A stretch of 34,663 bases of DNA from Candidatus Eiseniibacteriota bacterium (GCA_043809585.1 JBDROZ010000069.1:62001-96663), one strand, 5' to 3'. Positions 1,674 to 33,731 are shown, numbered from the stretch's first letter. Made by a program: numbers and translations. The notes: generated by a model from the letters alone, not told the origin.

Positions 1674-1683
1674 TCAAGCTCTC

Positions 1684-17415: not shown

Positions 17416-17429
17416 GGCGCCATCCTCCC

Positions 17430-20403: not shown

Positions 20404-21525
20404 CTACGGGCCTACCGGGTAGGGCATGTGGTCGAACGCGTCCTTCACGTGGCACTTGTTGCAGAGCGAGCGCTGGTTGTCGGTGAAGGTGTACTGGTAG
20501 TACTTGTTCGCGATGTCCTCCACGCTGGCGCCGCCGTCGCCGTCCTGCGGGTGCGACTCGTCATTGATGAAGGCCGCGCCGAAGTCCCAGCGGCCGGCAT
20601 CCGGGAACGCCGACGCGTGGGCGCGGTGGCAGGTCACGCACATGACACGATCCGTACCGGCCGGGCCGAGGGTGTAATCCGTCGGGTCCGCGGTCTCGAG
20701 ATCGACGTTGACCGCCTCGAAGGGCACGAGGCCCCAGTAGGAGGTCGCCTGGACGCCGCCGTCCTGGTCCTCGGAGCTGACATAGGCGTTGTACACGGCC
20801 GCCACGGTCGAACCGAGGTTCTGGCCCGTCGGGTGCACGAATTTGGTCGTGTTAGGGGAGTGGAAGGTCTCATGGCAGTTCGCGCACCAGAGGGACATTC
20901 CCGACTTGTGGATCGTGTGCCGGGCATCGGTCTCGTTGCCGCCGCCGCCCACGTAGGTCCGGCGGCTGTTGCCGGCGGCGATCGGAGCGTTCGAGACGAA
21001 GTCGTAACGAGTGCCGCCGTAGATCGGGCCGAGGGCCGAGCCGTAGAGAAGACGGAAGCTCTCGTTGCCGTGCGGGTCGTGGCAGCTGGTGCAGGTCAGG
21101 TTGGTGGAAAGAAAGTCCCCGCCCGGCGCCGAACCCAGGGTCGCGTCAAAGGTCAGGCCGTAGGCCGGACCGTACACGTTGTGGCCGTGGCTGTCGCCCG
21201 TGCTCTCGTTGGCATGGCCGTGGGACGTCCAGGTGAAGGTCTTGGTGAGCCAGTAGAAATCGCCACCCGGACCGTAGCCCAGGCCGCCGAAGAACTGGCC
21301 GTAGGCGGCGTGGCAGCCGAGGCACGTGTCGGTGGAGTTGCCGTTGTTCAGCAGATACGCGTTTCCATTCGGATGAGCCGCGTCCACGAGGGCGCCGTCC
21401 TGGCTGTTATGCATCGTATGGCAGCCCTGACAGTCGGCGACGCCGGCGTCGTGGAACGCGAGACCGCTGCCGCTGGCCAAGGCGACAGCGAAGATCGCGG
21501 TCAGAAGAATCTTGGTGAACTTCAT
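20404..21525 (-). CDS. omcS: Hexaheme c-type cytochrome, OmcS/OmcT nanowire family homolog (373 aa)
   Basis: AGGAGG RBS and Sec signal ending SGLA. Mature N-terminus FHDAGVADCQGCHTMHNS, versus FHSGGVAECEGCHTMHNS in G. sulfurreducens OmcS (recalled). Six CxxCH motifs. Shared motifs PGGDFxWxxKTxTW, GHNV, APGG, CxSCHDPHG, GMSxWCANCH, CxxCHRAHAS and QRxLCNKCHxKD. Tandem TAG TAG stop. Confidence 0.88.
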   Translation of the reverse strand: MKFTKILLTAIFAVALASGSGLAFHDAGVADCQGCHTMHNSQDGALVDAAHPNGNAYLLNNGNSTDTCLGCHAAYGQFFGGLGYGPGGDFYWLTKTFTWTSHGHANESTGDSHGHNVYGPAYGLTFDATLGSAPGGDFLSTNLTCTSCHDPHGNESFRLLYGSALGPIYGGTRYDFVSNAPIAAGNSRRTYVGGGGNETDARHTIHKSGMSLWCANCHETFHSPNTTKFVHPTGQNLGSTVAAVYNAYVSSEDQDGGVQATSYWGLVPFEAVNVDLETADPTDYTLGPAGTDRVMCVTCHRAHASAFPDAGRWDFGAAFINDESHPQDGDGGASVEDIANKYYQYTFTDNQRSLCNKCHVKDAFDHMPYPVGP

Positions 21526-21608
21526 GGAATGCATGCCTCCTGGAGATGGTCTCGACAAAAAAACATCATGCCCGAACAAGGAACGCCATAGGCTCTTACC
21601 TCCCTGAA

Positions 21609-22580
21609 TCACGAAGCACTCCCCCGATACCCGGAAGTTCCGGCTTCCGTCTCGACAAGACGGAACGCCTGCACCCGGCCCTCGAACCCTTGAGCCACCC
21701 ACAGTCTGCCGTCGGGCAACGCGGCGATCGCCGTCGGATGGTATAGGTTGCCGGTTCTCGCTCCCAGGCTCCCGTGCTCGCTCAGAAGTCGAAACTCCTC
21801 GTCGTACGCGAGAATGGTGTGCCGCATCCGGTCGAGCACGAGAATGGTGCCGCGAAAGCCGAATGCGATCCCCACGGGGAAGGCGAGCTCGCCCCTTCCC
21901 CCACCGGGCACACCGAACGTCGACAGGAGCTCTCCCTCGGGCGAAAGCACCAAAACGTAACGCAACTCTCCCCCGGGGACGAAGATCCGTCCGTCCGGGG
22001 CTTCCGCCGGGCGGCCGATGATCAGCCCCTCTTCCCGGGGATCCTCCACCGGCATCCGGGTCCAGAGAATCTCGCCCGTCTTTCCGTCATGTTTCGCCAG
22101 CAGACCGCTGGCCTGATCGACGGTCACGAGATCCCCGTCCCGGGTGACGAGGAGATGGCCCGGAGACCAATCCTCGGTGGGCCGCTCCACCTCGAAAGGC
22201 GTCGGCTCGCCCAGGTAGTTCAACCGCCGGATCGTTCTCTTCCCGTTCGGGCTCCGGTCCGTGCAGACGAAGCTGCCCCACAATTCGATGGAGCCGTCCT
22301 GGGGAGACGACATCCCGGCAATGTTGCCGGTCATGAATGTATGGATGTTGTGCCTGTTGTATACCAAGAGTCCCCGCGCTCCGTCATCGGTCACACAGAT
22401 CTCACCACTCACGGGATTGACCGTGACTGCGGTGGGGCGGATGGGCCGGGTCGACGACGTCACACCCGAAAGTACCCCCTCGTACCGCAAGGTCAGGCCC
22501 GCGTGAAGCGGCGCGACCGAGAGAATAATGAAAAGCCCGCAGAGAACAAGTCCCATACGAACTCGTCTTTTCCGTTCCAT
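21609..22580 (-). CDS. Secreted NHL-repeat beta-propeller protein (OscD-like by context)
   Basis: GGAGG before ATG 22580 and a signal peptide. NHL motifs RPTAVTV, FGVPGGGRGELAFPVGIA and GSLGARTGNLYHPTAIA...RVQAF. Confidence 0.85.
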   Translation of the reverse strand: MERKRRVRMGLVLCGLFIILSVAPLHAGLTLRYEGVLSGVTSSTRPIRPTAVTVNPVSGEICVTDDGARGLLVYNRHNIHTFMTGNIAGMSSPQDGSIELWGSFVCTDRSPNGKRTIRRLNYLGEPTPFEVERPTEDWSPGHLLVTRDGDLVTVDQASGLLAKHDGKTGEILWTRMPVEDPREEGLIIGRPAEAPDGRIFVPGGELRYVLVLSPEGELLSTFGVPGGGRGELAFPVGIAFGFRGTILVLDRMRHTILAYDEEFRLLSEHGSLGARTGNLYHPTAIAALPDGRLWVAQGFEGRVQAFRLVETEAGTSGYRGSAS

Positions 22581-22637
22581 AGTCTCGAGCCTCCGGGGGG
22601 GCATGACCGTCGCCCTGCTCGCTTCCTACAGTTGTGC

Positions 22638-22667
22638 ATTATGACACATTATTTCTGTTTAGGTCAA
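22638..22667 (-). promoter_or_regulatory. Sigma70-type promoter of the NHL-omcS unit
   Basis: Minus strand TTGACC-N18-CATAAT with extended -10 TG, in an AT-rich intergenic region. Confidence 0.65.
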
Positions 22668-22801
22668 GACGTAAAACGAGGTTAACAGCGTTAGAAGATC
22701 TAATAACTCGCTTCCTGGAATTGGCTTAGATCAAATCCCAGCGTTTAAGCAGGAATTAGGTTGGTAACCGGGTCATACACAAGAAGTTAATGAAAGATAA
22801 T

Positions 22802-22840
22802 GGGAGAGGGGGGCGGACGCCAGCCGCTCCCCCCCCCCGC
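22802..22840 (-). terminator. GC-rich hairpin after the giant cytochrome gene
   Basis: GGGGGGCGG...CCGCTCCCCCC imperfect stem, followed on the minus strand by TTATCTTT. Confidence 0.5.
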
Positions 22841-22850
22841 GAAGCGTCGA

Positions 22851-25800
22851 TCAGCGGCTTCGGATCTTGTCAATGTGACACTTGACGCAGAGGGGGCCCC
22901 CCGGATCGCCCGAGAGAATGCCCTCCCACTCCGACCCGTGGGGATTGTGACAACTGACGCAAGTGACCGGCTTTCCGGTGACCGGGTCCTTCACTTCCGG
23001 GCCGACCGGGTGCATCGTGTGGTCGCCGAACCCGTGGCACCGCCCGCAGATATCCCCCTCTTGCCCCACCGGCCCGAGGGCATCGGCATGCGGGTCATGG
23101 CAGGTCGTGCAGGCGCCGATGCCCGTCTCCGGGTGATGGTATTTCGCCTTCACCGAGGCGAGCACCAAATCCCCGTGGCAGCCGGCGCAGACCGTCTGCT
23201 GGTCCGCCGCGAGGAGGTTCTTCTCCGGCGCCGTGTGGGGTTCGTGGCAGGCGGTGCACTTCCCGTCACCGACCGGCCCGTGGGCTTTCCCTTCTCGAAC
23301 CACCGCCTGAATGCCGTCGTGACACTGGTAACAGACCCGGTCCTCGGCGGCGGTCAACGTCTTCAGGGACCCCTCGTGACAGCCGGAACAGTTCCCCTCC
23401 TCGAAGGGGGGGTGGACATTGTCGTAGGCGAGGGCGGTCCCGTCCGATGCGTGGGGGATCGTGGCATCGGTTGCATCTGGCCCCCGTGAGATCCATGCCC
23501 CGGTGGCTCCGGTTCATGGCCGGGTTGGTCGTATTGTGGCACCCGGCGCAAAGCTCGGAGAGGTCCCGCTTGAGGGCGAAGGTGTGCTCCGTACCGTGGG
23601 GATCATGGCAGCGGAGGCACATGTCCCTCCCGAAGGGGGAGTGGACGCGGGCCTTCTTCTTCAGGGCCAGCATGTCGGGATGGCAGTCGAAGCAGAGATC
23701 CCGGGACGACTCCTTGAGGAGCGACGCATGGTCCGATCCGTGGCTCTCGTGGCAGCTCTCGCACCGGCCCTCCCGGACCGGGGCGTGGGCCAGTTCCAAG
23801 CTCGGGAAGAGACTCGACCGATCGTGACACCCGGCGCAGCTCTCCCCGGCGCTCCCGGCGAGGAGAAACTCGCCCCGCGCGACGTGGGGATTGTGGCATC
23901 CCGTGCAATCGCCCGCCTCGAAGGGGGCGTGAATCTTGGTCTTGCCCGCCACCGCCTCCCGCACGTCGTCGTGGCACATGAGACAAAGCTCGGCGGTCTC
24001 CGTCCCCTCGGCGATGGCGTCGTGACACATCGCGCAGTCGCCGTCCGCGAACGGGGGGTGGGCGTTGGCGAGCAGAAGCGACGCCCCCGCCGAGCGGTGC
24101 GGGTCGTGGCATGAGGCGCAGTCCAGGGTCGACGGGTCGAGCCCGAGGTGCTTCCCGCGAAAGTCGGCGTCCTCCTCGTCGTGGCAGTCGAAGCAAAGGC
24201 CAGGAATCGGAGAGTTCAGGAGGGCGTGCTCCGGGCCGCCGTGCGGCCTATGGCAGGCCAGGCAATCGTCCTGGACCGGGCCGTGCACCGAGCCGGCCCC
24301 CGCCATGTCGACCACGTCCTCGTGGCAGCTGGCGCAGAGGAGGAAGGAGGGGGCCGCGAGGAGCGCCTTCTCCTCCGAGCGATGGGGGGTGTGGCAGTCG
24401 AGACAGGCCCCCGCCGCCACCGGCCCGTGCATGAACGGCTTTCCCGCCCCGTCCGCGATGTCGTCGTGACATGTCCCGCACAGCTCTTCGGGCTCGGCTA
24501 CCAGCATGGCGGTACGCTCGCCGCCGTGGGGCTCGTGGCAGTCGAGGCACATGCCGGCGACGGCCGGGGCGTGCACGCTTCCCTTCTTCGATTCGGCGAC
24601 GACGTCGTCATGACAGGTCAGGCAGAGCTCCTCCGGGGATTGATTCAAGAGGCCCGCGCGATCCGAGACGTGGGCGTCGTGACAATCGAGGCACCGCCCC
24701 TCGGCGACCACCTTGTGAGGATGGGCGGACGCGTTCAGGAGTTTCACGTTCAAATGGCACGAGAGACAGAGATCGCCCGGCCGCTGCTCCAAGAGGGCCA
24801 CATGGCGGGAGGAGTGCGGATCGTGGCAGGCCGTGCACGCCTGCTTGACGAAGGGGGCGTGGCGGAACCGTCCTTCCTTATCCTGAAGGGAATCCTCCGT
24901 GTGACAGCCGAGGCACTGCTCGTTCGTCTCCGCCTTCAAGAGAGCCGGGAAGGCGCCGCCGTGGGGCTCGTGACAGGTGGCGCACTCCCCGCCCGCGACC
25001 GGATCGTGCACGGTCTGCAGTCCCATGTCGGGCGTGTCGTGACAGTCGGCGCAGAGCCGGTCCTGTCGCTGCACGAGAAGCCCCGGAAACGCGCTGCCGT
25101 GCGGGTCGTGGCAGGTCCCGCACGAACCATCCTCGAAGGGGGCGTGGGAGACTTTCGCCCCCTCGCCGACTTCGTGGCACATGAGACAGATCTCCTCGTA
25201 CCCCTCGACCAGCTCCATCGCTCCGCCGGCGCCCGCGGCGTGACAAGTTTCGCATTCCATGCCGGCCACGGGGCCATGGATCGCGCCGCGCAGCAGCGTC
25301 GGCTCCGCGGAACTGTGGGGATCGTGACAGGAGGTGCATGGTCCGGACGCGACGTCCCAGCCGCCGTGATTCTCCCGGAGCGTCGATTCGTTCTTGTGGC
25401 ACCCGAGACAGAGATCGCGGCCCGGCTTTACGAGCAGACCTTCGTATTCCGAGGCGTGGGCGTCGTGGCAACCCCCGCACCCTTCCTTCAACAAGGGCTT
25501 GTGGACGTGTTCCCGCTCGAAAGCGGATCGGTCGTGGCAGCCGTAGCAGAATTCGGCGCCCCGCGCCGGCAGGAGCAGGGGTTCGCCCGTTCCGTGGGGG
25601 TGGTGGCACGCTTCGCACCCCTCCTTGTCCAGGGGGGCGTGCACGTGGGCCGCCTCGTCCACGGCGGCGTACTCCTCGTGGCAGGTCGTGCAGAGACCGG
25701 GGCCCTTCGCCTTCAGGATGAGCCCGCCGAGAATGCCGTGCGGCTTGTGGCAGGAGTCGCACTTCTTGTCCTTGAATGGATCGTGGGCGTGGGATCGCTT

Positions 25801-25965
25801 GACTTCTCCCCGAAGATCCTCGTGGCAATCGAGACAGTCTTTCGGCTTGAATCGGTCCGAGGCGCGCGCCCCCACCGGCCCGAAGACCGAGCAAACGATC
25901 AGCGCCGACAGGACGAACCCCGCCGACCGGTGCCAACCCCGTCGATGCCGATACCCCGCACTCAT
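22851..25965 (-). CDS. Giant multiheme cytochrome c (paired-CxxCH family), ~1037 aa, 42 CxxCH by hand count; frameshifted at G5 23453-23457
   Basis: 34 CxxCH motifs in ORF 23266-25965 up to CNRCHDP. Deleting one base continues HASDGTALAYDNVHPPFEEGNCSGCH into ORF 22851-23357 and adds 8 more. N-terminal signal peptide ends GARA. Confidence 0.9.
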
Positions 25966-25969
25966 CGTC

Positions 25970-27688
25970 CTAGCCCCCCGATCCCGTGTTCGCCGACGAA
26001 GCGGGCGTCTCCGCCCCCCCGCCCACCCCCGACTCCGGTACCCACGCGCGGATTCGCTCCGCGATCACTTCCTCCGCCCCCGGCGCGATCTTCGTTTCCG
26101 AGGCCCCTTCGAGACGCTCCAGGGCGACCTTGATCAACTCCTGGTTGCGGCGGTTTCTCATCTCCCGAAGGACCTGGTGGCGGCACTCCGCGAGGGGCGG
26201 GGTCGAGACGCGCTCCACCGCGTCGACCACTCCGACCACGAAGCCGCCCTCCGTCTCCACGGGACCGACGACGTTCATGTCCGCCGCGTCCGTCTCGTCG
26301 AAAAGGGAGGGCTCGATCCACCCGGAAAACGACGGGGGCCCGACCTCGACCACGCCCTCGGCCCGCTCCGAGAGCCACTTCAGCTTCGCCCCCTTCTCGA
26401 CCATCTCCCTGAAGGCGGCCGCCGAAGACAGGTCCGCGAGGAGGACGCTCGACACCTTGATCCGCGGCTTCGGCATGAAGGCCTCGGAATGGGCCGAGTA
26501 GAACTCCTCGACTTCCTTCTCTTCCGGCTCGAAGGGGACGCCGAGGATCAGCCGCAGCACTTCCTCCCGGAGGAGGCCCCGCTCGAGAGCGCGCGCATGG
26601 CGCAGGATATCGTCTCTCGAGAGGAACCCGAGGACCGACGCCTCGTAAGAGAGAAGGGCTTCGGAAAAGTACTCCTCGAACATCTTGTCCCGAACCTCGT
26701 TCGCGTTCGGCTTCCCCGCGAGTCCGTGGAAGTAGACGTAGAGTATGCTCTTCGTCAGGCCTTTCACCGTGAGAAAGCCGATCGGCGAGTGGGCGAGGGT
26801 GTCCTCGCTCGTGCGGAGATACTCCTGCACCTTCGGATCCTCCGAGCCGTAGTCGAGAGAGGCGAGCAGGGAGTCGTCGACCACCATGCCGTACTTCTCG
26901 CGGACCGATTCGGTGAAGGACCGGACGGCGAACATGACCCGATCCTTCATGATCGCCTCTTTGATCGCCCCCCTCATCTCCTCGGAAGTGCCGAGATTCT
27001 CCTCTCGCCGGTCGACGAGGCGCACCAGGTGCCACCCGAATTGGGTCTTCACGGGTCCCGCGGTCCCCCCCGGTTCGAGGGATCGGACGGCCTCTTCGAA
27101 CTCGGGTACGAAACGCCCTTCCCGGGCCCAGCCGAGATCGCCCATTTTCTTCGCCGATGTCGAGTCGAGGGAGTGCCTCGCCGCGAGGTCCCCGAAGGAG
27201 ACGCCCGTTTCCAGACTCTCGCGGAGCGCGCGCGCTTCCTCTTTCTCGGTCACGAGGATGTGGGAGACGCGATTCATGATGTTCGACACGTTCGTGAAGC
27301 TATCCAGCTCCGCCTCCGTCGGCTCCGCCACGCCGTTCGACACGGAGTCGAGGAGGGCCATCATCCCCTTGTGCCGCCGAAGCTCGCGCACTTGATTCCG
27401 GACCGCCGGGAGCGAGTCGGCGCCGATGCGGTACCCTTCCTGTTCGAGAAGACGGTTCTGGATCAGCCGCCGGAGCAGCCCATCCGGGCTCGGAAGGGCC
27501 TCCTCTCCCCCCTTGCGGAACACCGCTCCGAAGGCGGCGAGCTCGCGGTTCAAGTCTTCCACCGTGATGTCCTCGCCGTTCACCGTGGCGAGCCGGTCTC
27601 CCGCCCCGGCGGCCCGGGCCTCGCCGAATCCGGCCGGGGAGAGGAGGAGGAGGGCGATGACCGGCAGCAATCGTTCCCGATGAATCAT
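25970..27688 (-). CDS. SurA/PrsA-like parvulin PPIase chaperone (OscH-like by context), 572 aa
   Basis: Start MIHRERLL (GGAG RBS) with a signal peptide. LATVNGEDITVEDL, then parvulin motifs VSHILV, FGDLAARHSLD, GDLGW, FVPEFEEAV and GPVKTQFGWHLV, plus a second degenerate parvulin domain. Confidence 0.88.
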   Translation of the reverse strand: MIHRERLLPVIALLLLSPAGFGEARAAGAGDRLATVNGEDITVEDLNRELAAFGAVFRKGGEEALPSPDGLLRRLIQNRLLEQEGYRIGADSLPAVRNQVRELRRHKGMMALLDSVSNGVAEPTEAELDSFTNVSNIMNRVSHILVTEKEEARALRESLETGVSFGDLAARHSLDSTSAKKMGDLGWAREGRFVPEFEEAVRSLEPGGTAGPVKTQFGWHLVRLVDRREENLGTSEEMRGAIKEAIMKDRVMFAVRSFTESVREKYGMVVDDSLLASLDYGSEDPKVQEYLRTSEDTLAHSPIGFLTVKGLTKSILYVYFHGLAGKPNANEVRDKMFEEYFSEALLSYEASVLGFLSRDDILRHARALERGLLREEVLRLILGVPFEPEEKEVEEFYSAHSEAFMPKPRIKVSSVLLADLSSAAAFREMVEKGAKLKWLSERAEGVVEVGPPSFSGWIEPSLFDETDAADMNVVGPVETEGGFVVGVVDAVERVSTPPLAECRHQVLREMRNRRNQELIKVALERLEGASETKIAPGAEEVIAERIRAWVPESGVGGGAETPASSANTGSGG

Positions 27689-27692
27689 GATT

Positions 27693-28805
27693 TCAAGACT
27701 CCATGAGCCGCGCGGGGAGGGCCTTGGCCATCCTCTCCGCCGCCCGGTCGAAGCGCCGGGGCAACGAGTGCGTATGTACGACACCGAAGAGCCCCAGCGG
27801 GTTTTCCCTGTCGATGAATTCGGAGGCGCCGTACAACACGGTCCCCGTCCGGCTGTCCACAACGGTCAGCTCCAAGAAAAGTGGTTCCTCCGCGCTCCGG
27901 GCGGGCGTGAGAAAGACGTCTTCCTGAAGGAAGGCGGGCAGGTTGCCCCCCACCGGAGTCTTGTACGAAAGGAGGGTGGACATGAGGATCGGCGCTTCGC
28001 CGAAGCGCTCGACGAGGGCCGCCCGCGCCTTCTCCCCGACCACCCCGGGCGGATACCCGCGGTCCTGCAGATCCCGCACCACGAGGGCCGGGTCCGTCAA
28101 AATCCAGCGGCCGTCCCGCACGAGGGCGCCCAAGATCGAATAGGTCGCGAGGTCGGTCTGGACAGGCTCGACCCCGACCGGTTGGACGGGAAGGAATATC
28201 AGTTCACGGGCGCTCTCGGACACCGGCGTCACCCGGAACCGTTCCACGACGGACGCGGCGACGCGGTCGAGCAACTCGCTCCACTCCACGGCCGTCCCTT
28301 CACCCGCTTCGAGAGCGGGGGCGATGAAAAGCTCCTCGACCTGGTCGATCCAGAAGATCCGCCCCGTCCGGGCGTCAAGGGCCCGGCCGTGGAGGATCAC
28401 CCGGTCGGTGTACACCGAGAGGTCGAGCACCATCAGCCGCTCCGCCCCGAGCCGGGCCGAGGTCTCGAAGAGAAACTCGTAGCCGAAGCTCCCCCCGGTC
28501 CTCACGCGCCATGCCTGGAGAAGAGGTTCCATGAGGGGATAGGGGATCACCTCGTCCCCCCGGGCCTCGAGCTTCTCCGTCACCGCCCTGTAGGCCGCGA
28601 TGCGGACGAGAGAGGGGTTGATGGGGGGGAGGAACCTGCTCCTATAAGAGACGAAGACCATCAGGGCCGTGCGCTGCGGCGCGGGGGCGACCGCCGGCGG
28701 GTGATGGTCCTTCGCCGAGGCCCGCGCCGAAAGAAACGCGGTGGGAGAGAAGAGGGCCGCCCCGAGGAGGCCTGTCGCGAGAATGAGCGCCCGTTGTTTC
28801 ATCAT
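27693..28805 (-). CDS. Exported protein with two CsgG/TolB-N-like alpha/beta domains (OscG-like by context)
   Basis: Signal peptide and two similar halves (GRALDARTGRIFW; LTVVDSRTGTVLY). Tightly packed in the operon. Confidence 0.65.
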   Translation of the reverse strand: MMKQRALILATGLLGAALFSPTAFLSARASAKDHHPPAVAPAPQRTALMVFVSYRSRFLPPINPSLVRIAAYRAVTEKLEARGDEVIPYPLMEPLLQAWRVRTGGSFGYEFLFETSARLGAERLMVLDLSVYTDRVILHGRALDARTGRIFWIDQVEELFIAPALEAGEGTAVEWSELLDRVAASVVERFRVTPVSESARELIFLPVQPVGVEPVQTDLATYSILGALVRDGRWILTDPALVVRDLQDRGYPPGVVGEKARAALVERFGEAPILMSTLLSYKTPVGGNLPAFLQEDVFLTPARSAEEPLFLELTVVDSRTGTVLYGASEFIDRENPLGLFGVVHTHSLPRRFDRAAERMAKALPARLMES

Positions 28806-28809
28806 CCGC

Positions 28810-29391
28810 CTACAGGAGGGTGCCGAGCGCCTCCCGCACCGATTTCCGGGAAACCTCGTGGAGGCTCGCCGAGGAGCCGCCGAACAACCTCTTCCACGTG
28901 GACATACCGGTCACGTTGACCTGGGATTGCCAGACAGCCGTTCCCGTCTCGGTCTCGGCGAGGCCGAACAGGGCGGTCACCTCGTTCCCCCGGTCTCGGC
29001 TCGACCGGTCCATGCCGTATTCCTCCACGGTGCCGAAGAAGAGGGCGTCGACGCCGAGGCGTTGTCCGAGACTCACAAGCTGCGCGGGGGAGAGGTCCGA
29101 GTCGGCCATGAGACGAAGTTCCAGCATCGCCGCCAGCACCTCGCCCGTCCCCACCAACTCGAGGCTTCCTTCCTCGAGGATCTCCATCATGAAGATGGAA
29201 TGGATCCGTTCGTCCGCGTACTCGTCAGGAGAGAGATTCTGGAAGGGGAGGATCGCGACCCGCCGGATGAACCCGAAATCGACTCCCGGATGGACGAAGC
29301 CCGACTTCCGGGACGAGGCGCACCCGCCGCCGAGGGCCCCCGCGATCAACAGGATCGCGGTCAATCGGTATCCGGTTCGCCAAGCTCTCAT
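28810..29391 (-). CDS. Lipoprotein, CsgG/GNA1162-like fold (OscF-like by context)
   Basis: Lipobox-like LGGGC. RVAILPFQNLS, LGQRLGVDALFFGTVEEY and LAETETGTAVW. Confidence 0.8.
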   Translation of the reverse strand: MRAWRTGYRLTAILLIAGALGGGCASSRKSGFVHPGVDFGFIRRVAILPFQNLSPDEYADERIHSIFMMEILEEGSLELVGTGEVLAAMLELRLMADSDLSPAQLVSLGQRLGVDALFFGTVEEYGMDRSSRDRGNEVTALFGLAETETGTAVWQSQVNVTGMSTWKRLFGGSSASLHEVSRKSVREALGTLL

Positions 29392-29449
29392 GTGGTTCGT
29401 CCTTTCCCGGCGCGGGGCCGCCTGCCCCCTATACTACACAAGACGACGC

Positions 29450-31699
29450 TCAAAAGGTCAAGGCGACCCGAAAGCCGCCCGTGATCGGGCTGCTCTTTTC
29501 CTCGCCCCGCCGGTATTGCTGGAACTGGAGATCCCCCTCCGTCCGGAGCCGGGGATAGACTTTCCACAGCATCGTGGCCCCGGCGCCCCGCTGGTCGCTG
29601 TCATTCCGGGTGTCCCGAAAATGACTGAGCGTGAGACGGGGCTCCAGGTCCCCGCCGGGGAAGGGGCTCCAGGAGAGGAGGTTTTGGGTGATCCAGTTCG
29701 AATCGCCCCGCACTTGGTATCTCGCTTCGCTCCGGTAATTGAGCTGCGGGAAGGGGATCCACGCGAGAGTGATCGAGGTGTCGTTGAAGCGGGTGAAGCC
29801 CGTGCCCGCTTCCAGATCGACCCATCGATCGGTCCGGCGCAGGTCGATGTTGACCGTCGCCACCGGGCGGGCCCGGACGTTCGTCGCCAAACTGTACGAA
29901 CTCGACAGGAGACCCTCGTCGAAGTCGTCGAGCCGGCCGTGGGTGACTTTCTGGTCGAAGCGGAGGGCCGGCGCGATCTGCCAATTGAACCCGAGAGAGT
30001 AGTTGTCGGTCGCCTTGTCGAGGTTCCCGCTCCGGTCGCGGGACCGGGACCACGCGAAAGTGCCGGAGACCGGGCCGCTCCTCCCGGCGCGCAGGGAGAC
30101 GCCCATATTCTCCGTGTCCGTACCCTTGCGGGTCGGGCTCGAGAGGGAGTGGGTCTCGTACCGGCCGCTGACGAGAAGACGCCCGACGTCCCATTGGGAC
30201 GAGAATCCGTGACTCCGCTCGACCAGGTCCTGGTTGGTCTCGGAAAAGACCCGCTCCCGGTACAGGCCGTCGTACCGCACCCGGAAATAATCGGTCACCG
30301 CGTATCCGACGCTCCCATCGATCCGGTGCGTGGCGTTGTCTTCCGTCCGTACATTCCCGGAGTCCTCGTCCTTCGAGAAGACCTCCAGCTCCGTGATGAA
30401 AAGCTCCGGCTCCGTCTCGCCGATCTTCACGTCCACGATCTTCAAGAACCGGGCGGTGATCCCGGCGGGGAAAACAAACTCCCACCCCTGGAAGCCCGTG
30501 CCCAGCTCCCGGTACCGTATGGTGAAATCCGCGGGCGAGACCTCCTCGAATTGGCTCCGCTCGGGATCGTTGCTGACGAAGATCCGCCACCGATAGAGGT
30601 CGGGGGTGAGCAGAATCCGGTCCACGTAGAGGAAGACCGAGTCCATCCGCGTCTCGTCGCCGAAGTCATAGAGCAGGTTCCGGTAATCGCCGCCGAACTC
30701 GCGCACCATCGAGGCGTCGTCCCCCAGATCGATCTCGGTCGGGGTCGACCGATCCCGGTCGTAGAGGCCGGAGACCTGCGTCGGCCCGTCCTCCAAGGGA
30801 TCGATCGCCTCCGGGGTGTCGTCGAGAAGATAGCCGCCGGAGAGGGGTGTCACGTAAAGGCCCTGGCTCCCGTCCGCGGGCGACTCCACTTTCTGGTCGA
30901 AGTAGCGGGAGTTGGCGCGGACTTGGATATCGCCCCGGTCTTCGCGAAAGCGGCCGCTCCCACGATACTCGAAGGTGTGGGACTGATGGGTCGTGAGGAC
31001 CTCCCGGTCGACGGCGTCGTTCCGGAGACGGGAGTACGCGTATTTGAACCGGCCGACGCGCCGGATCCCTTGCTCCGCTCCGAGGGACAAGGCGGACTCC
31101 CGGACCTCCTCCCGTCCGATGCCCGTGACGTCCCGGCGAGAGTCGTTTCTTTGCCACCGGGCGTCGAGATTCGTTCCCCTCTCGGAGCGGAGATTGACCC
31201 AACCGCCGTACTCGAGCCTTTCGAGTACCGGCGCCTCGGAGTCCGCCGTGAATTCCCGCCGGTAACCGCTCCCCTGAAGCCCCAGGCGAAAGTAGTGGGA
31301 GCTGTAGTCCAGGTTCGCCCCCGGCTGAAGGGTGACGGCCTCGAAGTCGCTCGACGTTCCCTGAATGCGGCTGTCGCTGAACTCCCGGAGCACCCGGAAC
31401 CGTGTGGCGAGGGTGAACCGGGACCTGACCCCGATGGGCTGGCGGAGTAGGATCTCCTCACGCCGCGTGTGGGCGCTGAACTCTTCGCCGCCCGCGCGCC
31501 CTTCCTGGTAGGTGTTCCTGAGGTCCAGCCGGCCGTCGAGGGCGAAGGAAAGGGAAGGGGCGAAGAGAAGGCACGCCAAGGGGATGAAGAGGAGCGGACC
31601 GATCGGACAAGGGGCGGCGATGCCCGTCCGGCGAGGACCGACGGTCGCGGAAGCGGCGCGGATGCGGACCTTTTCAGGCGCTTCGGGCGCAGGCGTCAA
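29450..31699 (-). CDS. Outer-membrane beta-barrel protein with inserted discoidin/F5-8-like domain (OscE-like by context)
   Basis: Start uncertain; TTG 31699 follows AGGAG in frame with ORF 29450-31870. Signal ends SLSFA-LDG. Many amphipathic Y/W/F-alternating strands and a terminal-Phe beta-signal GGFRVALTF. Confidence 0.75.
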   Translation of the reverse strand: MTPAPEAPEKVRIRAASATVGPRRTGIAAPCPIGPLLFIPLACLLFAPSLSFALDGRLDLRNTYQEGRAGGEEFSAHTRREEILLRQPIGVRSRFTLATRFRVLREFSDSRIQGTSSDFEAVTLQPGANLDYSSHYFRLGLQGSGYRREFTADSEAPVLERLEYGGWVNLRSERGTNLDARWQRNDSRRDVTGIGREEVRESALSLGAEQGIRRVGRFKYAYSRLRNDAVDREVLTTHQSHTFEYRGSGRFREDRGDIQVRANSRYFDQKVESPADGSQGLYVTPLSGGYLLDDTPEAIDPLEDGPTQVSGLYDRDRSTPTEIDLGDDASMVREFGGDYRNLLYDFGDETRMDSVFLYVDRILLTPDLYRWRIFVSNDPERSQFEEVSPADFTIRYRELGTGFQGWEFVFPAGITARFLKIVDVKIGETEPELFITELEVFSKDEDSGNVRTEDNATHRIDGSVGYAVTDYFRVRYDGLYRERVFSETNQDLVERSHGFSSQWDVGRLLVSGRYETHSLSSPTRKGTDTENMGVSLRAGRSGPVSGTFAWSRSRDRSGNLDKATDNYSLGFNWQIAPALRFDQKVTHGRLDDFDEGLLSSSYSLATNVRARPVATVNIDLRRTDRWVDLEAGTGFTRFNDTSITLAWIPFPQLNYRSEARYQVRGDSNWITQNLLSWSPFPGGDLEPRLTLSHFRDTRNDSDQRGAGATMLWKVYPRLRTEGDLQFQQYRRGEEKSSPITGGFRVALTF

Positions 31700-31880
31700 T
31701 AGCCAAAGCTCCTGCCGGCGGGGAACCTCATCTCGTGGGGTCGAACGAAAGCCATCGTAGCACACGCCTCTGAAACTGTGAACCGGGGAAACTTTTTTCC
31801 CGGGGGCCATGGTCCCCGGGTTCTCCGCCGGCGGGGGGGAGAGGAGGGTCCGGGGGCTTTTCTGTGACATCGCAACTCTT

Positions 31881-32036: not shown

Positions 32037-33731
32037 ATGAGATCCATGGGTGACCTCTTCCGACGAGGCTTGGGGTTTCTTTGCCTCGTTCTGGTTGTTT
32101 CCTTCGCCGCCCGGTCCGCCGGTGCGAACGAGACTTCACCCCCCGTCAGCATGATGGGAGAGGGCCGGCCCCTGGATACGGTCGCGGAGATCGTGATGCC
32201 GCCGGTCGACGCGGCGGCCCTCTTGGCCGAAGACGAGGAGCGCTTGGGTGACCAACTCGACGCGCCCAACCGCTTCGCCTTCGCCCATCGGGTGGATCTT
32301 CGTCCGTCCGACGAGGGAACCTGGGAGGTCCTGGGCGACGGCTCCCGCCTTTGGCGTCTCCGGATCCGCTCCGACGGCGCCTTCTCGCTGAACGTCGGCT
32401 TCACGACATTCCGCCTGCCCGAGGGGGCGACGTTCCACTTTTTCGCGCCCGACGGCTCCACGGTGTGGGGCCCGTACACGGCGGAGAATGCGGTCGAGGG
32501 GGAATTCTGGTCGCCGATTCTCCGCGGCGACGAGGCGGTGCTCGAGCTCTTCGTCCCCGCGAACGCGTCGTTCGAGGCGGAGCTCTTTCTCGCGTCGGTC
32601 AACCACGACTACCGCGGCTTTGCGAAGACGGCGGCCCAGAAGCTGATGCAGGGCTACTGCAACAACGACGTGATCTGCCCCGTGGGCGATCCGTGGCGGG
32701 ACGACATCCGCTCCGAGGGCGTCTACACGGTGTCCGGCAGCTGGTACTGTTCGGGGCAGATGCTGAACACCGCTATCGCCGAAAATCCGCCCCCGTACTT
32801 CCTGACCGCCTATCACTGCGGGGTCACGACTTCCAACGATCAGACCGTGCGCATCTACTGGAATTTCGAATCGCCGACCTGCGGCCAGCTCTGCTGCGGC
32901 AGCCTCGCGCAGAACCAATACGGGACGATCTTCCGCTCCCGGTACAGCACCTCCGACTTCTGCCTCCTCCAGTGCTCCGCCGACCCCCCCGAGGCGTTCA
33001 ACGTCTATTACGCCGGTTGGGACGCCACCGGCCAGTCGGTGAGCTCGGCCGTCGGCATCCATCACCCGAACTGCGACGAGAAGGCGATCAGCTTCCAATA
33101 CGACCCGCTCACCGTGACCTCTTACCTCAGCAATTCGGTGCCGGGTAACGGCTCGCACTGGCGCGTCGACGACTGGGAGGACGGCACCACCGAGCCCGGC
33201 TCTTCCGGTTCGGGACTCTGGGACAACCGCCATCGCCTGGTCGGCCAGCTCCACGGCGGCTACGCCTCGTGCAGCTCGATCACTTCCGACTGGTACGGCC
33301 GGTTCTCGGTCTCCTGGAACGGCGGCGGTACGATGACCACCCGCCTGGTAGATTGGCTCGATCCGACGAGCTCGGGCGTGCTCTACATCGACGGCCGCGA
33401 CCCGGGCGACATCGACACGGACGTCGAGAGCGGCCGGCCGGTGAATCAGGACCGGGGCCTCCTCTTCTCGATCAACCCGAACCCGGTGCGCGGCTCGTCG
33501 CATATCTTCTTCGAGCTGAAGAAGCCGGGCCGGGTGGAGCTCGAGGTCTTCAATGCGTCGGGGCGGTTGGTCTCGAAAGTGCCGGCGAAGACCTATCCGG
33601 CGGGCACGACGAACGTCACCTGGGACGGCACCTCGCCCGGCGCCGGCGCCCTCCCCGACGGCATCTACTTCGTCCGCATGCTCGTGGACGACCAGACCGC
33701 CGGGACTCAGAAGTTCGTGATGATCCGGTAA
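32037..33731 (+). CDS. Lysyl endopeptidase-like (Achromobacter protease I, S1 family) pre-pro-protease with FlgD-Ig CTD
   Basis: Signal peptide and pro-domain WRLRIRSDGAFSLN. Catalytic motifs CSGQMLN, LTAYHC, SDFCLL, TEPGSSGSG and GQLHGG...SDWYGRF. C-terminus: NPNPV...WDG...GIYFVRM. Confidence 0.9.
   Translation: MRSMGDLFRRGLGFLCLVLVVSFAARSAGANETSPPVSMMGEGRPLDTVAEIVMPPVDAAALLAEDEERLGDQLDAPNRFAFAHRVDLRPSDEGTWEVLGDGSRLWRLRIRSDGAFSLNVGFTTFRLPEGATFHFFAPDGSTVWGPYTAENAVEGEFWSPILRGDEAVLELFVPANASFEAELFLASVNHDYRGFAKTAAQKLMQGYCNNDVICPVGDPWRDDIRSEGVYTVSGSWYCSGQMLNTAIAENPPPYFLTAYHCGVTTSNDQTVRIYWNFESPTCGQLCCGSLAQNQYGTIFRSRYSTSDFCLLQCSADPPEAFNVYYAGWDATGQSVSSAVGIHHPNCDEKAISFQYDPLTVTSYLSNSVPGNGSHWRVDDWEDGTTEPGSSGSGLWDNRHRLVGQLHGGYASCSSITSDWYGRFSVSWNGGGTMTTRLVDWLDPTSSGVLYIDGRDPGDIDTDVESGRPVNQDRGLLFSINPNPVRGSSHIFFELKKPGRVELEVFNASGRLVSKVPAKTYPAGTTNVTWDGTSPGAGALPDGIYFVRMLVDDQTAGTQKFVMIR

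What the first reader, a model, noticed from the sequence alone, without database searches (positions are those of the whole stretch)
20404..31699. Complete OmcS-type cytochrome nanowire locus with assembly machinery in an apparently non-Geobacter lineage
Seen: seven co-oriented genes, in order: beta-barrel, CsgG-like lipoprotein, double-CsgG-like protein, parvulin chaperone, 42-heme cytochrome, NHL propeller and OmcS-like hexaheme. Established (recalled): the G. sulfurreducens omcS-companion (osc) cluster combines channel-like OscEFG, a PPIase chaperone OscH, a beta-propeller OscD and large multiheme cytochromes. Inference: this is a compact, dedicated nanowire secretion and assembly system. 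The flanking FlgD-CTD and SWxxVK-tail genes point to an uncultured FCB-adjacent phylum that is not known for nanowire-based electron transfer. osc clusters are reported to be widespread, so the lineage-level novelty needs checking.
Basis: partly seen in the sequence, partly recalled or inferred. Interest (0 to 1): 0.92.

Follow-up and report, generated by a model that had tools for sequence, protein, structure and literature searches.

The report
OmcS-type nanowire locus in Eisenbacteria
An uncultured Eisenbacteria genome carries a rearranged copy of the gene set that Geobacter uses to make conductive OmcS cytochrome filaments; it is a real and tidy example of a system already published as widespread.

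Summary
The seven co-oriented minus-strand genes are there, in the stated order. The last one is a true full-length OmcS homolog (E 2e-47 to PDB 6EF8; six CxxCH). The barrel, lipoprotein, two-domain protein, parvulin PPIase and giant cytochrome are homologous to, and in the same order as, the block next to omcS-like genes in named Geobacteraceae (Geomonas, Geobacter sp.). That block is the published osc cluster. RpoC places the genome in Eisenbacteria, not Desulfobacterota.

- The 42-heme gene is split in this assembly by a one-base homopolymer frameshift. One re-assembled contig lacks that base.
- It is an end-to-end fusion of the 26-heme and 16-heme cytochromes that are separate genes elsewhere.
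- The NHL protein belongs to the class encoded just upstream of omcS-like genes, not the OscD class. No OscD-position homolog was found.
- The "CsgG-like" proteins match GNA1162/PelC/LpoB folds.

The same colinear block occurs in 34 of 80 OmcS-bearing loci from seven named phyla, but in only 2 of 10 genomes of this phylum.

Verdict: a new member, with some variant architecture, of a known system. This scan met osc-type clusters before in at least six other genomes.

The parts
29450..31870 (-). Outer-membrane beta-barrel at the OscE position, with a beta-sandwich insert (residues about 236-401 of the 706-aa construct, window 30368-30865).
   Evidence: No Pfam or NCBIfam family. hhalign of the window-clade alignment A4 against the Geobacteraceae alignment A5 gives probability 98.9%, E 1.8e-17, over 639 columns. 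The AlphaFold2 model has pLDDT 86 and pTM 0.67, with about 28 strands by my count of the DSSP list plus the insert. The best PDB match is MtrB (6r2q_B), E 2e-10, but the TM-score is only 0.30.
28810..29391 (-). Lipoprotein at the OscF position (193 aa), with a single PelC/LpoB/GNA1162-like domain and a lipobox Cys24.
   Evidence: Pfam LpoB at 6.6e-5 and GNA1162-like at 9.4e-5. phmmer matches the gene at this position in 6 Geobacteraceae loci over its full length, E 5.7e-24 to 6.6e-30. Cys24 is invariant in 39 of 39 aligned sequences.
27693..28805 (-). Protein at the OscG position (370 aa) with two tandem PelC/LpoB-like alpha/beta domains. It has a signal peptide but, unlike the Geobacteraceae homologs, no lipobox Cys.
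   Evidence: hhalign of A2 against A3 gives probability 95.7%, E 1.1e-8, over 290 columns. The model has pLDDT 85 and pTM 0.82. The top Foldseek PDB matches are GNA1162 (4hrv), FlgT, PelC (9h80, 5t11), the TolB N-domain and LpoB. The A3 invariants include C22, while the A2 invariants include no Cys.
25970..27688 (-). Periplasmic parvulin-type PPIase chaperone at the OscH position (SurA-like N-terminal part plus a rotamase domain). The likely ATG is at 27688, 4 nt after the upstream stop.
   Evidence: Pfam Rotamase_3, Rotamase_2 and Rotamase at 2.8e-19 to 1.9e-18, and SurA_N_2 at 1.6e-4. phmmer matches the gene at this position in 6 Geobacteraceae loci, E 2.6e-17 to 3.3e-15, mostly over query residues 31-450.
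22851..25965 (-). Giant multiheme cytochrome with 42 CxxCH (34 + 8). It is a fusion of the 26-heme (OscI-position) and 16-heme (OscJ-position) cytochromes. In this assembly it is split by a one-base frameshift in the C5 run at 23453-23457.
   Evidence: Window part A, residues 12-648, matches the 26-heme protein of a Geobacter sp. MAG (L052) at E 4e-167. Intact 1041-aa and 1033-aa 42-heme orthologs in L005 and L007 align colinearly with a 26-heme protein and then a 16-heme protein. A contig of run X1 lacks one letter at 23453.
21609..22604 (-). NHL-repeat beta-propeller (331 aa, signal peptide) of the class encoded directly upstream of omcS-like genes.
   Evidence: Pfam NHL at 7.4e-9. phmmer hits 42 of the 43 proteins found directly upstream of an OmcS-like gene (median 56 bits) and none of the 25 OscD-position proteins. 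Two sigma-70-like sites lie in the 247-bp gap upstream, at 22675-22638 (consensus matches only).
20404..21534 (-). OmcS-family hexaheme cytochrome (376 aa with signal peptide). The mature N-terminus begins FHDAGVADCQGCHTMHNS.
   Evidence: Six CxxCH. phmmer against PDB finds OmcS 6ef8/6nef at E 2e-47, aligned from residue 1 to residue 407 of the chain. Thirteen His positions are invariant in alignment A1. In the FastTree tree it sits in a 5-row clade (support 95) with L005, L006, L007 and L012.

Best explanation
This is an osc-type (omcS-companion) locus of an Eisenbacteria genome. I read it as a self-contained gene set that makes an extracellular OmcS-like hexaheme cytochrome polymer, exports it and wires it to the periplasm.

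**Shown**
- The subunit gene is a full-length OmcS homolog.
- Barrel, lipoprotein, two-domain protein, PPIase and giant cytochrome are homologs of the genes at the OscE, F, G, H and I+J positions of named Geobacteraceae, in the same order.
- All predicted products have signal peptides.
- The genome has cytochrome c maturation genes and 26 open frames with four or more CxxCH motifs.

**Inferred mechanism**
1. The hexaheme is exported by Sec and loaded with heme in the periplasm.
2. The SurA-like parvulin PPIase keeps it folded and unpolymerised.
3. The lipoprotein and the two-domain protein form a PelC-like periplasmic ring under the large (about 28-strand) barrel, through which subunits pass or in which the filament base sits.
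4. Subunits polymerise outside by the inter-subunit histidine-heme bond known for OmcS.
5. The 42-heme protein, a fusion of what are two cytochromes elsewhere, carries electrons across the periplasm to the barrel or filament base.
6. The NHL propeller, always paired with the subunit gene, acts on the subunit or filament.

The direction of electron flow (out to Fe(III) or partner cells, or in) is not determined.
For: **OmcS homology**
- E 2e-47 to 6ef8, end to end.
- six CxxCH.
- the CxxCH-T-M-H motif and 13 His positions are invariant.
- (passages read): all 12 axial ligands of OmcS are His, and one comes from the neighbouring subunit.

**Accessory homology to named Geobacteraceae loci**
- lipoprotein E 5.7e-24 to 6.6e-30, PPIase 2.6e-17 to 3.3e-15, NHL down to 2e-15.
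- two-domain protein, hhalign 95.7%.
- barrel, hhalign 98.9%.

**Synteny**
- barrel-lipoprotein-lipoprotein-PPIase is colinear in 34 of 80 OmcS-selected loci, and is followed by a cytochrome of 8 or more hemes in 28 of the 80.

**Letter assignment**
- oscC = GSU2501, oscI = GSU2495, oscJ = GSU2494; roles are OscH folding, OscEFG secretion and OscD morphology.
- an eight-gene block, GSU2500-2493, lies downstream of GSU2501, and GSU2495 has 26 hemes.

**Fusion**
-.

**Folds**
-.

**Lipoprotein with two-domain protein**
- ipSAE 0.66 against a best control of 0.00. That mark was reached by 58 of 80 solved complexes and 2 of 110 mismatched pairs.
- The three runs agree in at least 87% of contacts, and the partner's pLDDT is at least 80.
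- My own alignments were used, so these counts hold only roughly.

**Genome capacity**
- 26 open frames with four or more CxxCH.
- three Cytochrom_C_asm matches above the cut-off.
- four OmcS paralogs.
Against: - No expression, heme or filament data exist for this organism.
- The roles of the Osc proteins come from one study that I could not read. I know them only through citing papers.
- G. sulfurreducens PCA's own proteins were not compared. Named Geomonas and Geobacter sp. loci stood in for them.
- In a quick FastTree tree the window's hexaheme falls in a 'short' clade of 39 rows, apart from the Geobacteraceae/Nitrospirota clade. PMC12977616 warns that only OmcS itself is known to polymerise and that homology does not predict it.
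- The cytochrome gene is frameshifted in the assembly. The only contig without the extra base has depth 3.3 and probably comes from the same sample.
- No OscD-position homolog was found, and the OscG-like protein lacks the lipobox.
- The complex pass may reflect memory of solved PelC rings (5t10/5t11, 9h80).
- The barrel's best structural match is the MtrB porin, which also fits the rival conduit reading.
Confidence: 0.6

Rival explanations
1. Porin-cytochrome conduit (the 'Oet' reading). The barrel is a porin that sheathes the giant multiheme cytochrome, as MtrB sheathes MtrA. Electrons cross the outer membrane through it to the OmcS-like cytochrome outside. The lipoproteins and the PPIase are only biogenesis helpers. 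On this reading the cluster is chiefly an electron conduit and not a secretion and assembly machine.
For: - PMC10553843 (passages read) names the same kind of cassette OetABI: a periplasmic cytochrome, the porin OetI and an extracellular cytochrome lipoprotein.
- That paper says the cassette was first seen in G. sulfurreducens, with omcS-like genes in the position of omcS and omcT.
- The barrel's top PDB match is MtrB (6r2q_B), E 2e-10.
- The 26-heme and 16-heme cytochromes are conserved parts of the block in 28 of 80 loci. Here they are fused into one 42-heme chain, which suits a continuous wire.
Against: - The TM-score to MtrB is only 0.30. TonB-dependent receptors and the PapC usher score almost as well.
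- The 42-heme N-terminus and most 16-heme proteins have plain signal peptides, not lipoboxes.
- A PelC-like ring pair plus a dedicated SurA-like PPIase are features of export machines.
- Citing papers report genetics assigning folding, secretion and morphology roles to Osc proteins.
- The two readings are not exclusive.
Confidence: 0.22
2. The hexaheme is an OmcS-family paralog that does not polymerise, for example a monomeric outer-surface or periplasmic cytochrome. The cluster then serves localisation of cytochromes in general, possibly for electron uptake such as Fe(II) oxidation.
For: [quoted passage not shown]
- The window's protein sits in a separate clade of shorter proteins, about 350-370 aa against 430-460.
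- A Krumholzibacteria MAG carried both OmcS and Cyc2 genes.
Against: - The N-terminal CxxCH-T-M-H motif and the 13 His positions aligned with OmcS are invariant across the alignment.
- The clade is strongly conserved: 64-80% identity over the 120 listed clusters. That suggests constraint over the whole surface, as expected for a polymer subunit.
Confidence: 0.1
3. The locus is decaying. The frameshift in the 42-heme gene is real, and the cluster, acquired horizontally, is no longer functional in this organism.
For: - The frameshift is present in the assembly.
- One of the genome's four OmcS paralogs is truncated, at 292 aa with 4 CxxCH.
- The cluster is absent from 8 of 8 other genomes of the same family.
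- A related locus, L045, is visibly broken.
Against: - The shift lies in a homopolymer at low coverage (3-6x), and one re-assembled contig has the in-frame length.
- All other six genes are intact.
- Both halves of the cytochrome keep every CxxCH motif and are 46-48% identical to the intact L005 ortholog.
Confidence: 0.06

Closest known systems
omcS-companion (osc) cluster of Geobacter sulfurreducens, GSU2505/2504-GSU2493 (Shen et al. 2025, Cell Chem Biol 32:239). I could not read this paper; I know it through PMC13194489, PMC12977616 and PMC13712944.
   Same: - The same protein families occur in the same order at the OscE, F, G, H, I and J positions, as judged on named Geomonas and Geobacter sp. 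loci.
- An OmcS-family hexaheme and an NHL gene are adjacent.
- The genome holds several OmcS paralogs.
   Different: - The module order is permuted. The NHL plus hexaheme pair lies downstream of the block instead of upstream. This is shared with L005, L007, L045 and L052.
- OscI and OscJ are fused into one 42-heme protein.
- No OscD-position gene was found.
- The OscG-like protein has no lipobox.
- The hexaheme is shorter and belongs to another clade.
- The host is Eisenbacteria.
OmcS nanowire subunit (PDB 6EF8, 6NEF)
   Same: - Six CxxCH.
- End-to-end alignment at E 2e-47.
- The same kind of mature N-terminus (FH..GVA.C.GCHTMHNS) and C-terminal CNKCH motif.
- His positions conserved.
   Different: - About 350 mature residues against 407, with several loops shorter.
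- Not in the Geobacteraceae clade.
- Polymerisation is untested.
OetABI porin-cytochrome conduit of syntrophic sulfate reducers (Murali et al. 2023, PMC10553843)
   Same: A large barrel, giant multiheme cytochromes and OmcS-like genes lie in one cassette, which is reported to move horizontally.
   Different: - I did not compare Oet sequences directly.
- Here the two cytochromes are fused, and no lipoprotein cytochrome is evident.
- The paper's survey was limited to Desulfobacterota.
PelBC exopolysaccharide exporter (PelC lipoprotein ring under the PelB barrel; PDB 5T10/5T11, 9H80)
   Same: - The domain fold of the OscF-like and OscG-like proteins matches (Foldseek E 2.8e-5 to 7.8e-5, TM-score normalised by target length 0.58-0.64).
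- The pairing is predicted to be side by side.
- Both are encoded next to a barrel.
   Different: - Sequence identity is only 10-11%.
- The cargo here would be a heme protein rather than a polysaccharide.
- One of the two proteins carries two domains.
- Ring formation is inferred, not shown.
MtrCAB complex of Shewanella (PDB 6R2Q)
   Same: It pairs a large outer-membrane barrel with multiheme cytochromes, and MtrB is the barrel's best PDB match.
   Different: - TM-score 0.30 and 7% identity.
- The barrel here has a beta-sandwich insert and about 28 rather than 26 strands. Both strand counts are mine: the first from the DSSP list, the second recalled.
- No MtrA or MtrC homologs are present.

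Membership tests
OmcS family (hexaheme nanowire-type cytochromes) | Six CxxCH heme-binding motifs in a protein of about 350-430 residues | tested here: met
   Six motifs in 376 aa.
OmcS family (hexaheme nanowire-type cytochromes) | Full-length sequence homology to OmcS of G. sulfurreducens | tested here: met
   phmmer against PDB finds only 6ef8/6nef, at E 2e-47. Two stretches cover chain residues 1-157 and 185-407.
OmcS family (hexaheme nanowire-type cytochromes) | Bis-His ligation, including a His just after the first CxxCH that binds a heme of the next subunit. The residue number, His16, is recalled. One search confirms only that one axial His comes from the neighbouring subunit. | tested here: inconclusive
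   CxxCH-T-M-H is conserved with OmcS and invariant in 8 of 8 aligned sequences, and 13 His positions are invariant. Which His is the inter-subunit ligand was not verified in any call.
OmcS family (hexaheme nanowire-type cytochromes) | Orthology to OmcS proper (GSU2504), as opposed to OmcT, OmcJ or GSU2501-like paralogs | tested here: not met
   The window's protein sits in a 39-row clade (support 99) of FCB-group, Acidobacteriota and similar sequences, apart from the clade with the Geomonas and Geobacter sequences (FastTree only, midpoint root).
OmcS family (hexaheme nanowire-type cytochromes) | Polymerises into conductive filaments | not testable with these tools
   Needs protein or cryo-EM.
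osc (omcS-companion) cluster | Outer-membrane barrel at the OscE position | tested here: met
   hhalign 98.9%, E 1.8e-17, 639 columns against the Geobacteraceae alignment.
osc (omcS-companion) cluster | Lipoproteins at the OscF and OscG positions | tested here: met
   OscF-like: phmmer E 5.7e-24 to 6.6e-30. OscG-like: hhalign 95.7%, E 1.1e-8. The OscG-like protein lacks the lipobox Cys that is invariant in 7 of 7 Geobacteraceae and Desulfuromonadaceae sequences.
osc (omcS-companion) cluster | Prolyl isomerase chaperone at the OscH position | tested here: met
   Pfam rotamase at about 1e-19. phmmer matches 6 Geobacteraceae loci at 2.6e-17 to 3.3e-15.
osc (omcS-companion) cluster | 26-heme OscI (GSU2495) followed by a second cytochrome, OscJ | tested here: met
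   Both are present, but fused. Window residues 12-648 match the 26-heme protein at E 4e-167, and the remainder matches the 16-heme protein. The gene is frameshifted in this assembly.
osc (omcS-companion) cluster | Beta-propeller-like OscD (GSU2500 position, directly upstream of the barrel) | tested here: not met
   Upstream of the barrel lies a divergent protease gene. The window's NHL protein hits 0 of the 25 OscD-position proteins. An HMM built on 25 OscD-position sequences finds only C26:4743-5810 in the genome, at E 2e-7, and that ORF scores far better as the NHL class. The genome is 97.5% complete.
osc (omcS-companion) cluster | Genetic requirement of the cluster for OmcS folding, secretion and filament shape | not testable with these tools
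   Known for Geobacter only through citing papers.
   Pfam gives LpoB and GNA1162-like, not CsgG. The listed Foldseek matches are GNA1162, FlgT, PelC, CT253, the LPHT ring, HpaA, TolB and LpoB, and no CsgG entry is among those listed.
OetABI porin-cytochrome conduit | Porin, periplasmic multiheme cytochrome and extracellular lipoprotein cytochrome | tested here: inconclusive
   The barrel and the giant cytochrome are present. No lipobox is evident on the 42-heme protein or on most 16-heme homologs. Oet sequences were not compared.

The most novel reading that the evidence does not exclude
The loci with the fused cytochrome form a distinct type of the osc machine. This type has no OscD and a non-lipidated OscG-like protein. 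So far it comprises the window, G001 of the same class, L005 and L007 (L045 and L006 share the gene order but are broken or cut), in at least two phylum-level lineages.

In this type the 26-heme and 16-heme cytochromes have become one 42-heme chain. That chain would be long enough to bridge the periplasm and enter the barrel, so that one polypeptide hard-wires the inner membrane side to the base of an OmcS-like filament.

If so, the fusion is natural evidence that OscI and OscJ form one continuous wire at the barrel. That would reconcile the 'assembly machine' and the 'porin-cytochrome conduit' readings of the Geobacter cluster. It would also mark horizontal spread of a plug-in nanowire cassette among FCB-group phyla.
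Probability: 0.2. Interest if true: 0.6.

Novelty: new member of a known kind. Interest (0 to 1): 0.35.

Why it matters
- It adds Eisenbacteria, a phylum without cultured members (recalled), to the lineages that carry the whole OmcS-type filament gene set. In the one paper my searches found with both terms, the phylum is only listed among taxa with iron-cycling genes. That gives a concrete gene basis for extracellular electron transfer in such biofilm or sediment bacteria.
- Only 2 of 10 genomes of the phylum carry the cluster. Its closest relatives sit in genomes whose RpoC is only 66% identical. Both point to horizontal spread of the cassette.
- The natural fusion of the two giant cytochromes is a small, useful clue for the open question of what those cytochromes and the barrel do in Geobacter: secretion machine or electron conduit.
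- None of this changes the picture set by the published osc work.

Tried and rejected
**Literature**
- The key paper (Shen et al. 2025) is not held under its PMC id or its DOI. I therefore cannot say which phyla or variants it already shows, and its supplements were not seen either.
- The search for 'omcS-companion', OscG and OscH returned mostly rice papers and one useful citing paper.
- Searching the paper's title phrases found only citing papers.
- 'Eisenbacteria' plus 'OmcS' gave 1 paper.
- The OmcS plus FCB-phyla and the Eisenbacteria plus multiheme searches gave one relevant preprint. PMC12307469, the peat preprint and the OmcZ-expression preprint added nothing on osc distribution; PMC13748539 adds only that accessory genes are absent from archaea.

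**Sequence searches**
- The word-index search with the 370-aa protein found only 3 proteins. It diverges too fast for that tool, and profile methods were needed.
- G. sulfurreducens is not among the 14 control genomes, so PCA's own proteins could not be compared.
- The first iterative-HMM script timed out in MAFFT. It was redone with hmmsearch alignments.

**Weak or empty results**
- Pfam on the barrel's insert gave nothing for the window. The Geomonas homolog gave F5_F8_type_C_2 at E 0.0058, below the cut-off, so 'discoidin-like' stays a hint.
- The barrel fold search gives only low TM-scores (0.22-0.33). It shows no more than 'large outer-membrane barrel'.
- Read laying used contigs only, from one study that is probably the source sample. 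Most of the stretch is covered by short pieces, and the contig of X2 ends inside the homopolymer and says nothing.
- Sigma-70 and terminator scans are consensus matches only.

**Considered and dropped**
- The locus as a chaperone-usher pilus system: PapC is only a weak structural match.
- The locus as a TonB-dependent receptor system: no plug domain or TonB box was found by Pfam.

**Not checked**

Full report
**Observation.** On the minus strand of the window lie seven genes in one direction with short or no gaps:
- a long ORF without any Pfam or NCBIfam family (29450-31870);
- a 193-aa lipoprotein with weak LpoB and GNA1162-like matches (28810-29391);
- a 370-aa protein without family (27693-28805);
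- a parvulin PPIase with a SurA-like N-terminal part (25970-27688);
- a very large Paired_CXXCH cytochrome (22851-25965);
- an NHL-repeat protein (21609-22604);
- a hexaheme cytochrome (20404-21534).

The cytochrome is not one open frame as assembled. An 899-aa ORF with 34 CxxCH runs into a 168-aa ORF with 8 CxxCH in another frame. The switch lies in a run of five C on the minus strand (window 23453-23457), inside a CHDPH motif.

**The subunit gene.** Against all PDB chains the hexaheme matches only OmcS (6ef8/6nef). The E-value is 2e-47, and the alignment runs from the first residue of the mature chain to its last. It includes the N-terminal FH..GVA.C.GCHTMHNS and the C-terminal CNKCH. A citing-free source, Filman et al. 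2019 (passages read), states that all 12 axial ligands of OmcS are histidines and that one comes from the neighbouring subunit. In an alignment of the window's protein with two paralogs and five database relatives, 13 His positions are invariant: the six of the CxxCH motifs and seven more. That the inter-subunit ligand is the His three residues after the first CxxCH is my recollection, not a call. The family is large: 2957 clusters had E <= 1e-5 among 8000 scored candidates, and the best 120 are 64-100% identical. The few named ones are labelled Krumholzibacteriia, Krumholzibacteria or Eisenbacteria. The window's genome has four copies. One is truncated to 292 aa with 4 motifs, and one has a seventh motif.

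**The accessory genes are the osc block.** I scanned one genome per species (GTDB) with an OmcS alignment and kept the 80 best loci with 10-kb flanks. Profiles grown from the window's proteins on the ORFs of 83 loci (the 80 plus three own paralog loci) converged. They found the barrel family in 46 loci, the lipoprotein family in 46 (usually two genes each), the PPIase in 41 and NHL proteins in 55. Many loci are short contigs, so absences mean little.

The recurrent order is as follows:

    NHL(~330) - hexaheme(s) - propeller(~480) - barrel(~740) - lipoprotein(~200)
      - two-domain lipoprotein(~380) - PPIase(~590) - 26-heme - 16-heme - sometimes NHL(~300)

Barrel-lipoprotein-lipoprotein-PPIase is colinear in 34 of 80 loci and is followed by a cytochrome of 8 or more hemes in 28. 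The 34 loci carry record titles from seven named phyla: Thermodesulfobacteriota 10, Nitrospirota 4, Ignavibacteriota 3, Krumholzibacteriota 3, Acidobacteriota 3, Zixiibacteriota 1 and Fibrobacterota 1. Nine are unnamed.

Cultured Geomonas limicola, G. silvestris and G. edaphica and Geobacter sp. AOG1 show exactly this order. It matches what PMC12977616 describes for G. sulfurreducens: an eight-gene block, GSU2500-GSU2493, downstream of the hexaheme GSU2501, with GSU2495 carrying 26 hemes. PMC13194489 calls this the osc operon, with oscC = GSU2501, oscI = GSU2495, oscJ = GSU2494, OscH for folding, OscEFG for secretion and OscD for morphology. That the letters D to K run consecutively over GSU2500-2493 is my inference.

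Direct comparisons of the window's proteins with the Geobacteraceae genes at the same positions:

| Window protein | Method | Result |
|---|---|---|
| Lipoprotein | phmmer, full length | E 5.7e-24 to 6.6e-30 |
| PPIase | phmmer | E 2.6e-17 to 3.3e-15 |
| Barrel | phmmer | only E 1.5e-4 |
| Barrel | hhalign, 639 columns | probability 98.9%, E 1.8e-17 |
| Two-domain protein | phmmer | no direct hit |
| Two-domain protein | hhalign, 290 columns | probability 95.7%, E 1.1e-8 |

As a specificity check, the same profiles run on all 25,469 open frames of the window's genome hit the barrel only in the window. The lipoprotein family hit the two window genes plus two weak others.

**The 42-heme protein.** Two relatives, L005 and L007, have intact 1041-aa and 1033-aa genes with 42 CxxCH at this position. 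Their residues about 4-648 align with whole 26-heme proteins of a Geobacter sp. MAG, a Krumholzibacteriia MAG and an Ignavibacteria MAG (E down to 9e-174). Residues about 650-1030 align with the whole 16-heme proteins minus their signal peptides (E down to 1.6e-88). The window's two pieces behave the same way and are 48% and 46% identical to L005. So the gene is an end-to-end fusion of the OscI-position and OscJ-position cytochromes (26 + 16 = 42).

On the frameshift, Logan contigs of three runs of one study, probably the window's own source, were laid on 22600-24400. One 240-nt contig of X1 (depth 3.3) lacks one letter at 23453, which gives the in-frame four-C version. The X2 contig ends inside the run and is uninformative. 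The shift is therefore more likely an assembly or low-coverage artefact than a dead gene, but this is not settled.

**The NHL gene, and what is missing.** NHL-family proteins in the loci fall into three contexts: directly upstream of a hexaheme (43), directly upstream of the barrel at the OscD position (25), and after the cytochromes (8). The window's NHL protein hits 42 of the first class, 7 of the third and none of the OscD-position class. So NHL plus hexaheme is a conserved pair, which in this locus sits after the block instead of before it. Two sigma-70-like sites in the 247-bp gap before the NHL gene fit a separate promoter, but they are consensus matches only. No OscD-position homolog lies next to the barrel, where a divergently transcribed protease with a FlgD_ig/Por_Secre_tail end is found instead. 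A profile of 25 OscD-position sequences finds in the genome only one weak hit (C26:4743-5810, E 2e-7), which scores far better as the NHL class. In several other loci too (L018, L021, L033, L078) the barrel gene directly follows the hexaheme gene, with no OscD-position gene between.

**Folds.** The two-domain protein models well (pLDDT 85, pTM 0.82, 36-row alignment) as two tandem alpha/beta domains. Each resembles GNA1162, PelC (the lipoprotein ring of the Pel exporter), FlgT, the TolB N-domain and LpoB. E-values are 9e-6 to 1e-3, and the TM-score normalised by target length is about 0.6 for the single-domain targets. No CsgG entry is among the listed matches.

The barrel models at pLDDT 86 and pTM 0.67. 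I count about 11 strands, then a beta-sandwich insert (residues about 236-401), then about 17 more strands. Its best PDB match is MtrB of the Mtr complex (E 2e-10), but all TM-scores are near 0.3, and TonB-dependent receptors and the PapC usher follow closely.

A complex prediction of the mature lipoprotein with the two-domain protein passed. The ipSAE was 0.66, 0.66 and 0.67 against a best control of 0.00. That mark was reached by 58 of 80 solved complexes and 2 of 110 mismatched pairs. The runs agree in at least 87% of contacts, the partner's pLDDT is at least 80, and the contacts lie on the second domain. My own alignments were used, so the counts hold only roughly. Because PelC rings are solved, the pass may be memory of that packing. 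It shows likeness to a ring of such domains, not binding.

The lipoprotein's Cys24 is invariant in 39 of 39 sequences. The Geobacteraceae two-domain proteins have an invariant Cys22, while the window's clade has none.

**Lineage and spread.** The genome's RpoC is 85-87% identical to two proteins named 'Candidatus Eisenbacteria bacterium'. The next named ones, at 69-73%, are 'bacterium', 'Candidatus Eisenbacteria sp.', Zixibacteria and Gemmatimonadota. This agrees with earlier notes of this scan on the same genome. The refuting condition 'Desulfobacterota' is not met.

The held GTDB phylum has only 10 species genomes. The OscF-like protein is found in 2 of the 10, counting the window's own genome, and in 0 of the 8 other genomes of its family, two of which are only 82% complete. 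The other carrier, G001, has NHL - two hexahemes - two lipoprotein-family genes - a 1065-aa 42-heme gene. No barrel or PPIase was detected in the 32 kb I fetched.

The genomes with the most similar loci (L005, L007, L045) have RpoC only 66% identical to the window's, as do two Krumholzibacteriia genomes. In a quick FastTree tree of 90 hexahemes the window groups with L005, L006 (Krumholzibacteriia), L007 and L012 (labelled Gemmatimonas) with support 95. That group lies inside a 39-row clade (support 99) of shorter proteins from FCB-group, Acidobacteriota and other lineages, apart from the Geobacteraceae/Nitrospirota clade. The tree is not a careful one and the root is arbitrary. Sporadic presence, together with nearest relatives in other phyla, suggests horizontal acquisition. 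I did not test this formally.

**How it probably works.** The genome has three cytochrome c assembly matches above the cut-off and 26 open frames with four or more CxxCH, including other giants. It is therefore equipped to make such proteins.

My reading follows the published Geobacter roles as relayed by citing papers. The PPIase handles the subunit in the periplasm. The PelC-like pair and the barrel export or anchor it. The hexaheme polymerises outside. The giant cytochrome feeds electrons.

A published rival reading of the same kind of cassette is the OetABI porin-cytochrome conduit. The MtrB-like barrel match and the fused 42-heme chain fit it, and the two readings can both be true. PMC12977616 cautions that only OmcS proper is known to polymerise and that the GSU2501-type hexaheme, not OmcS, is the constant companion of the block. 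Filament formation by this shorter clade is therefore an inference.

**Novelty.** The system is known and was published as widespread. OmcS genes were reported in Krumholzibacteria in 2020. Eisenbacteria were named among taxa with iron-cycling genes in 2021, without OmcS being tied to them in the passages I read. [quoted passage not shown] This scan has already followed up osc-type clusters in at least six other genomes, including a Krumholzibacteria one and one with a 41-heme cytochrome.

What may be new are details: an Eisenbacteria host, the permuted module order, the fused OscI/J, the lack of OscD and the unlipidated OscG-like protein. I could not read Shen et al. or its supplements, so these may already be in print.

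Noticed in passing
L002:1498-2376 (G000:C45): A fourth OmcS paralog, 72% identical to the window's, is only 292 aa with 4 CxxCH. The N-terminal third, with two heme motifs, is missing, so it is probably a remnant or is frameshifted.
   Followed up: partly
L003:1486-2784 and L003:2915-3724 (G000:C41): This OmcS paralog has a seventh, N-terminal CxxCH. Just upstream lies a 269-aa ORF that looks like a small outer-membrane barrel.
   Followed up: no
G000:C36:46289-50979: Two overlapping open frames carry 20 and 36 CxxCH motifs. This may be another giant cytochrome (about 56 hemes) split by a frameshift.
   Followed up: no
L086/L087 (G001:C72:40000-72000): The only other carrier in the phylum has NHL, two hexahemes not recognised by phmmer with the window's OmcS at E 1e-5, two lipoprotein-family genes and an intact 1065-aa 42-heme gene. 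No barrel or PPIase was detected in the fetched 32 kb.
   Followed up: partly
window 30368-30865 (-): The barrel carries a beta-sandwich insert. The Geomonas homolog gives a sub-threshold F5_F8_type_C_2 (discoidin-like) match at E 0.0058, and the window's insert gives none.
   Followed up: partly
window 14302-19750 (-): A heavy-metal-type RND efflux operon lies directly downstream of the locus: an outer-membrane factor (OEP), a HlyD_D23 fusion protein with a His-rich N-terminus, and an AcrB-family pump.
   Followed up: no
window 6418-11445 (-) and 32037-33731 (+): A 1675-aa protein has an RGI-lyase-like domain, and a 564-aa trypsin-like protease flanks the locus on the other side. Both end in a FlgD_ig or Por_Secre_tail domain (type IX secretion signal), in line with an FCB-group host.
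   Followed up: partly
window 22829: One contig of run X2 lacks one letter here, in the gap just after the cytochrome gene. Contigs of X1 and X3 do not show this. It is probably another low-coverage homopolymer ambiguity.
   Followed up: no
window 3-2283 (-): A Ser/Thr protein kinase with TPR repeats lies next to an ECF sigma factor at the window's start.
   Followed up: no
L054 (Nitrospirota MAG): Up to seven OmcS-family ORFs lie in a row upstream of the barrel. Two of them are nearly identical (branch lengths 0.004), so the tandem amplification is recent.
   Followed up: no
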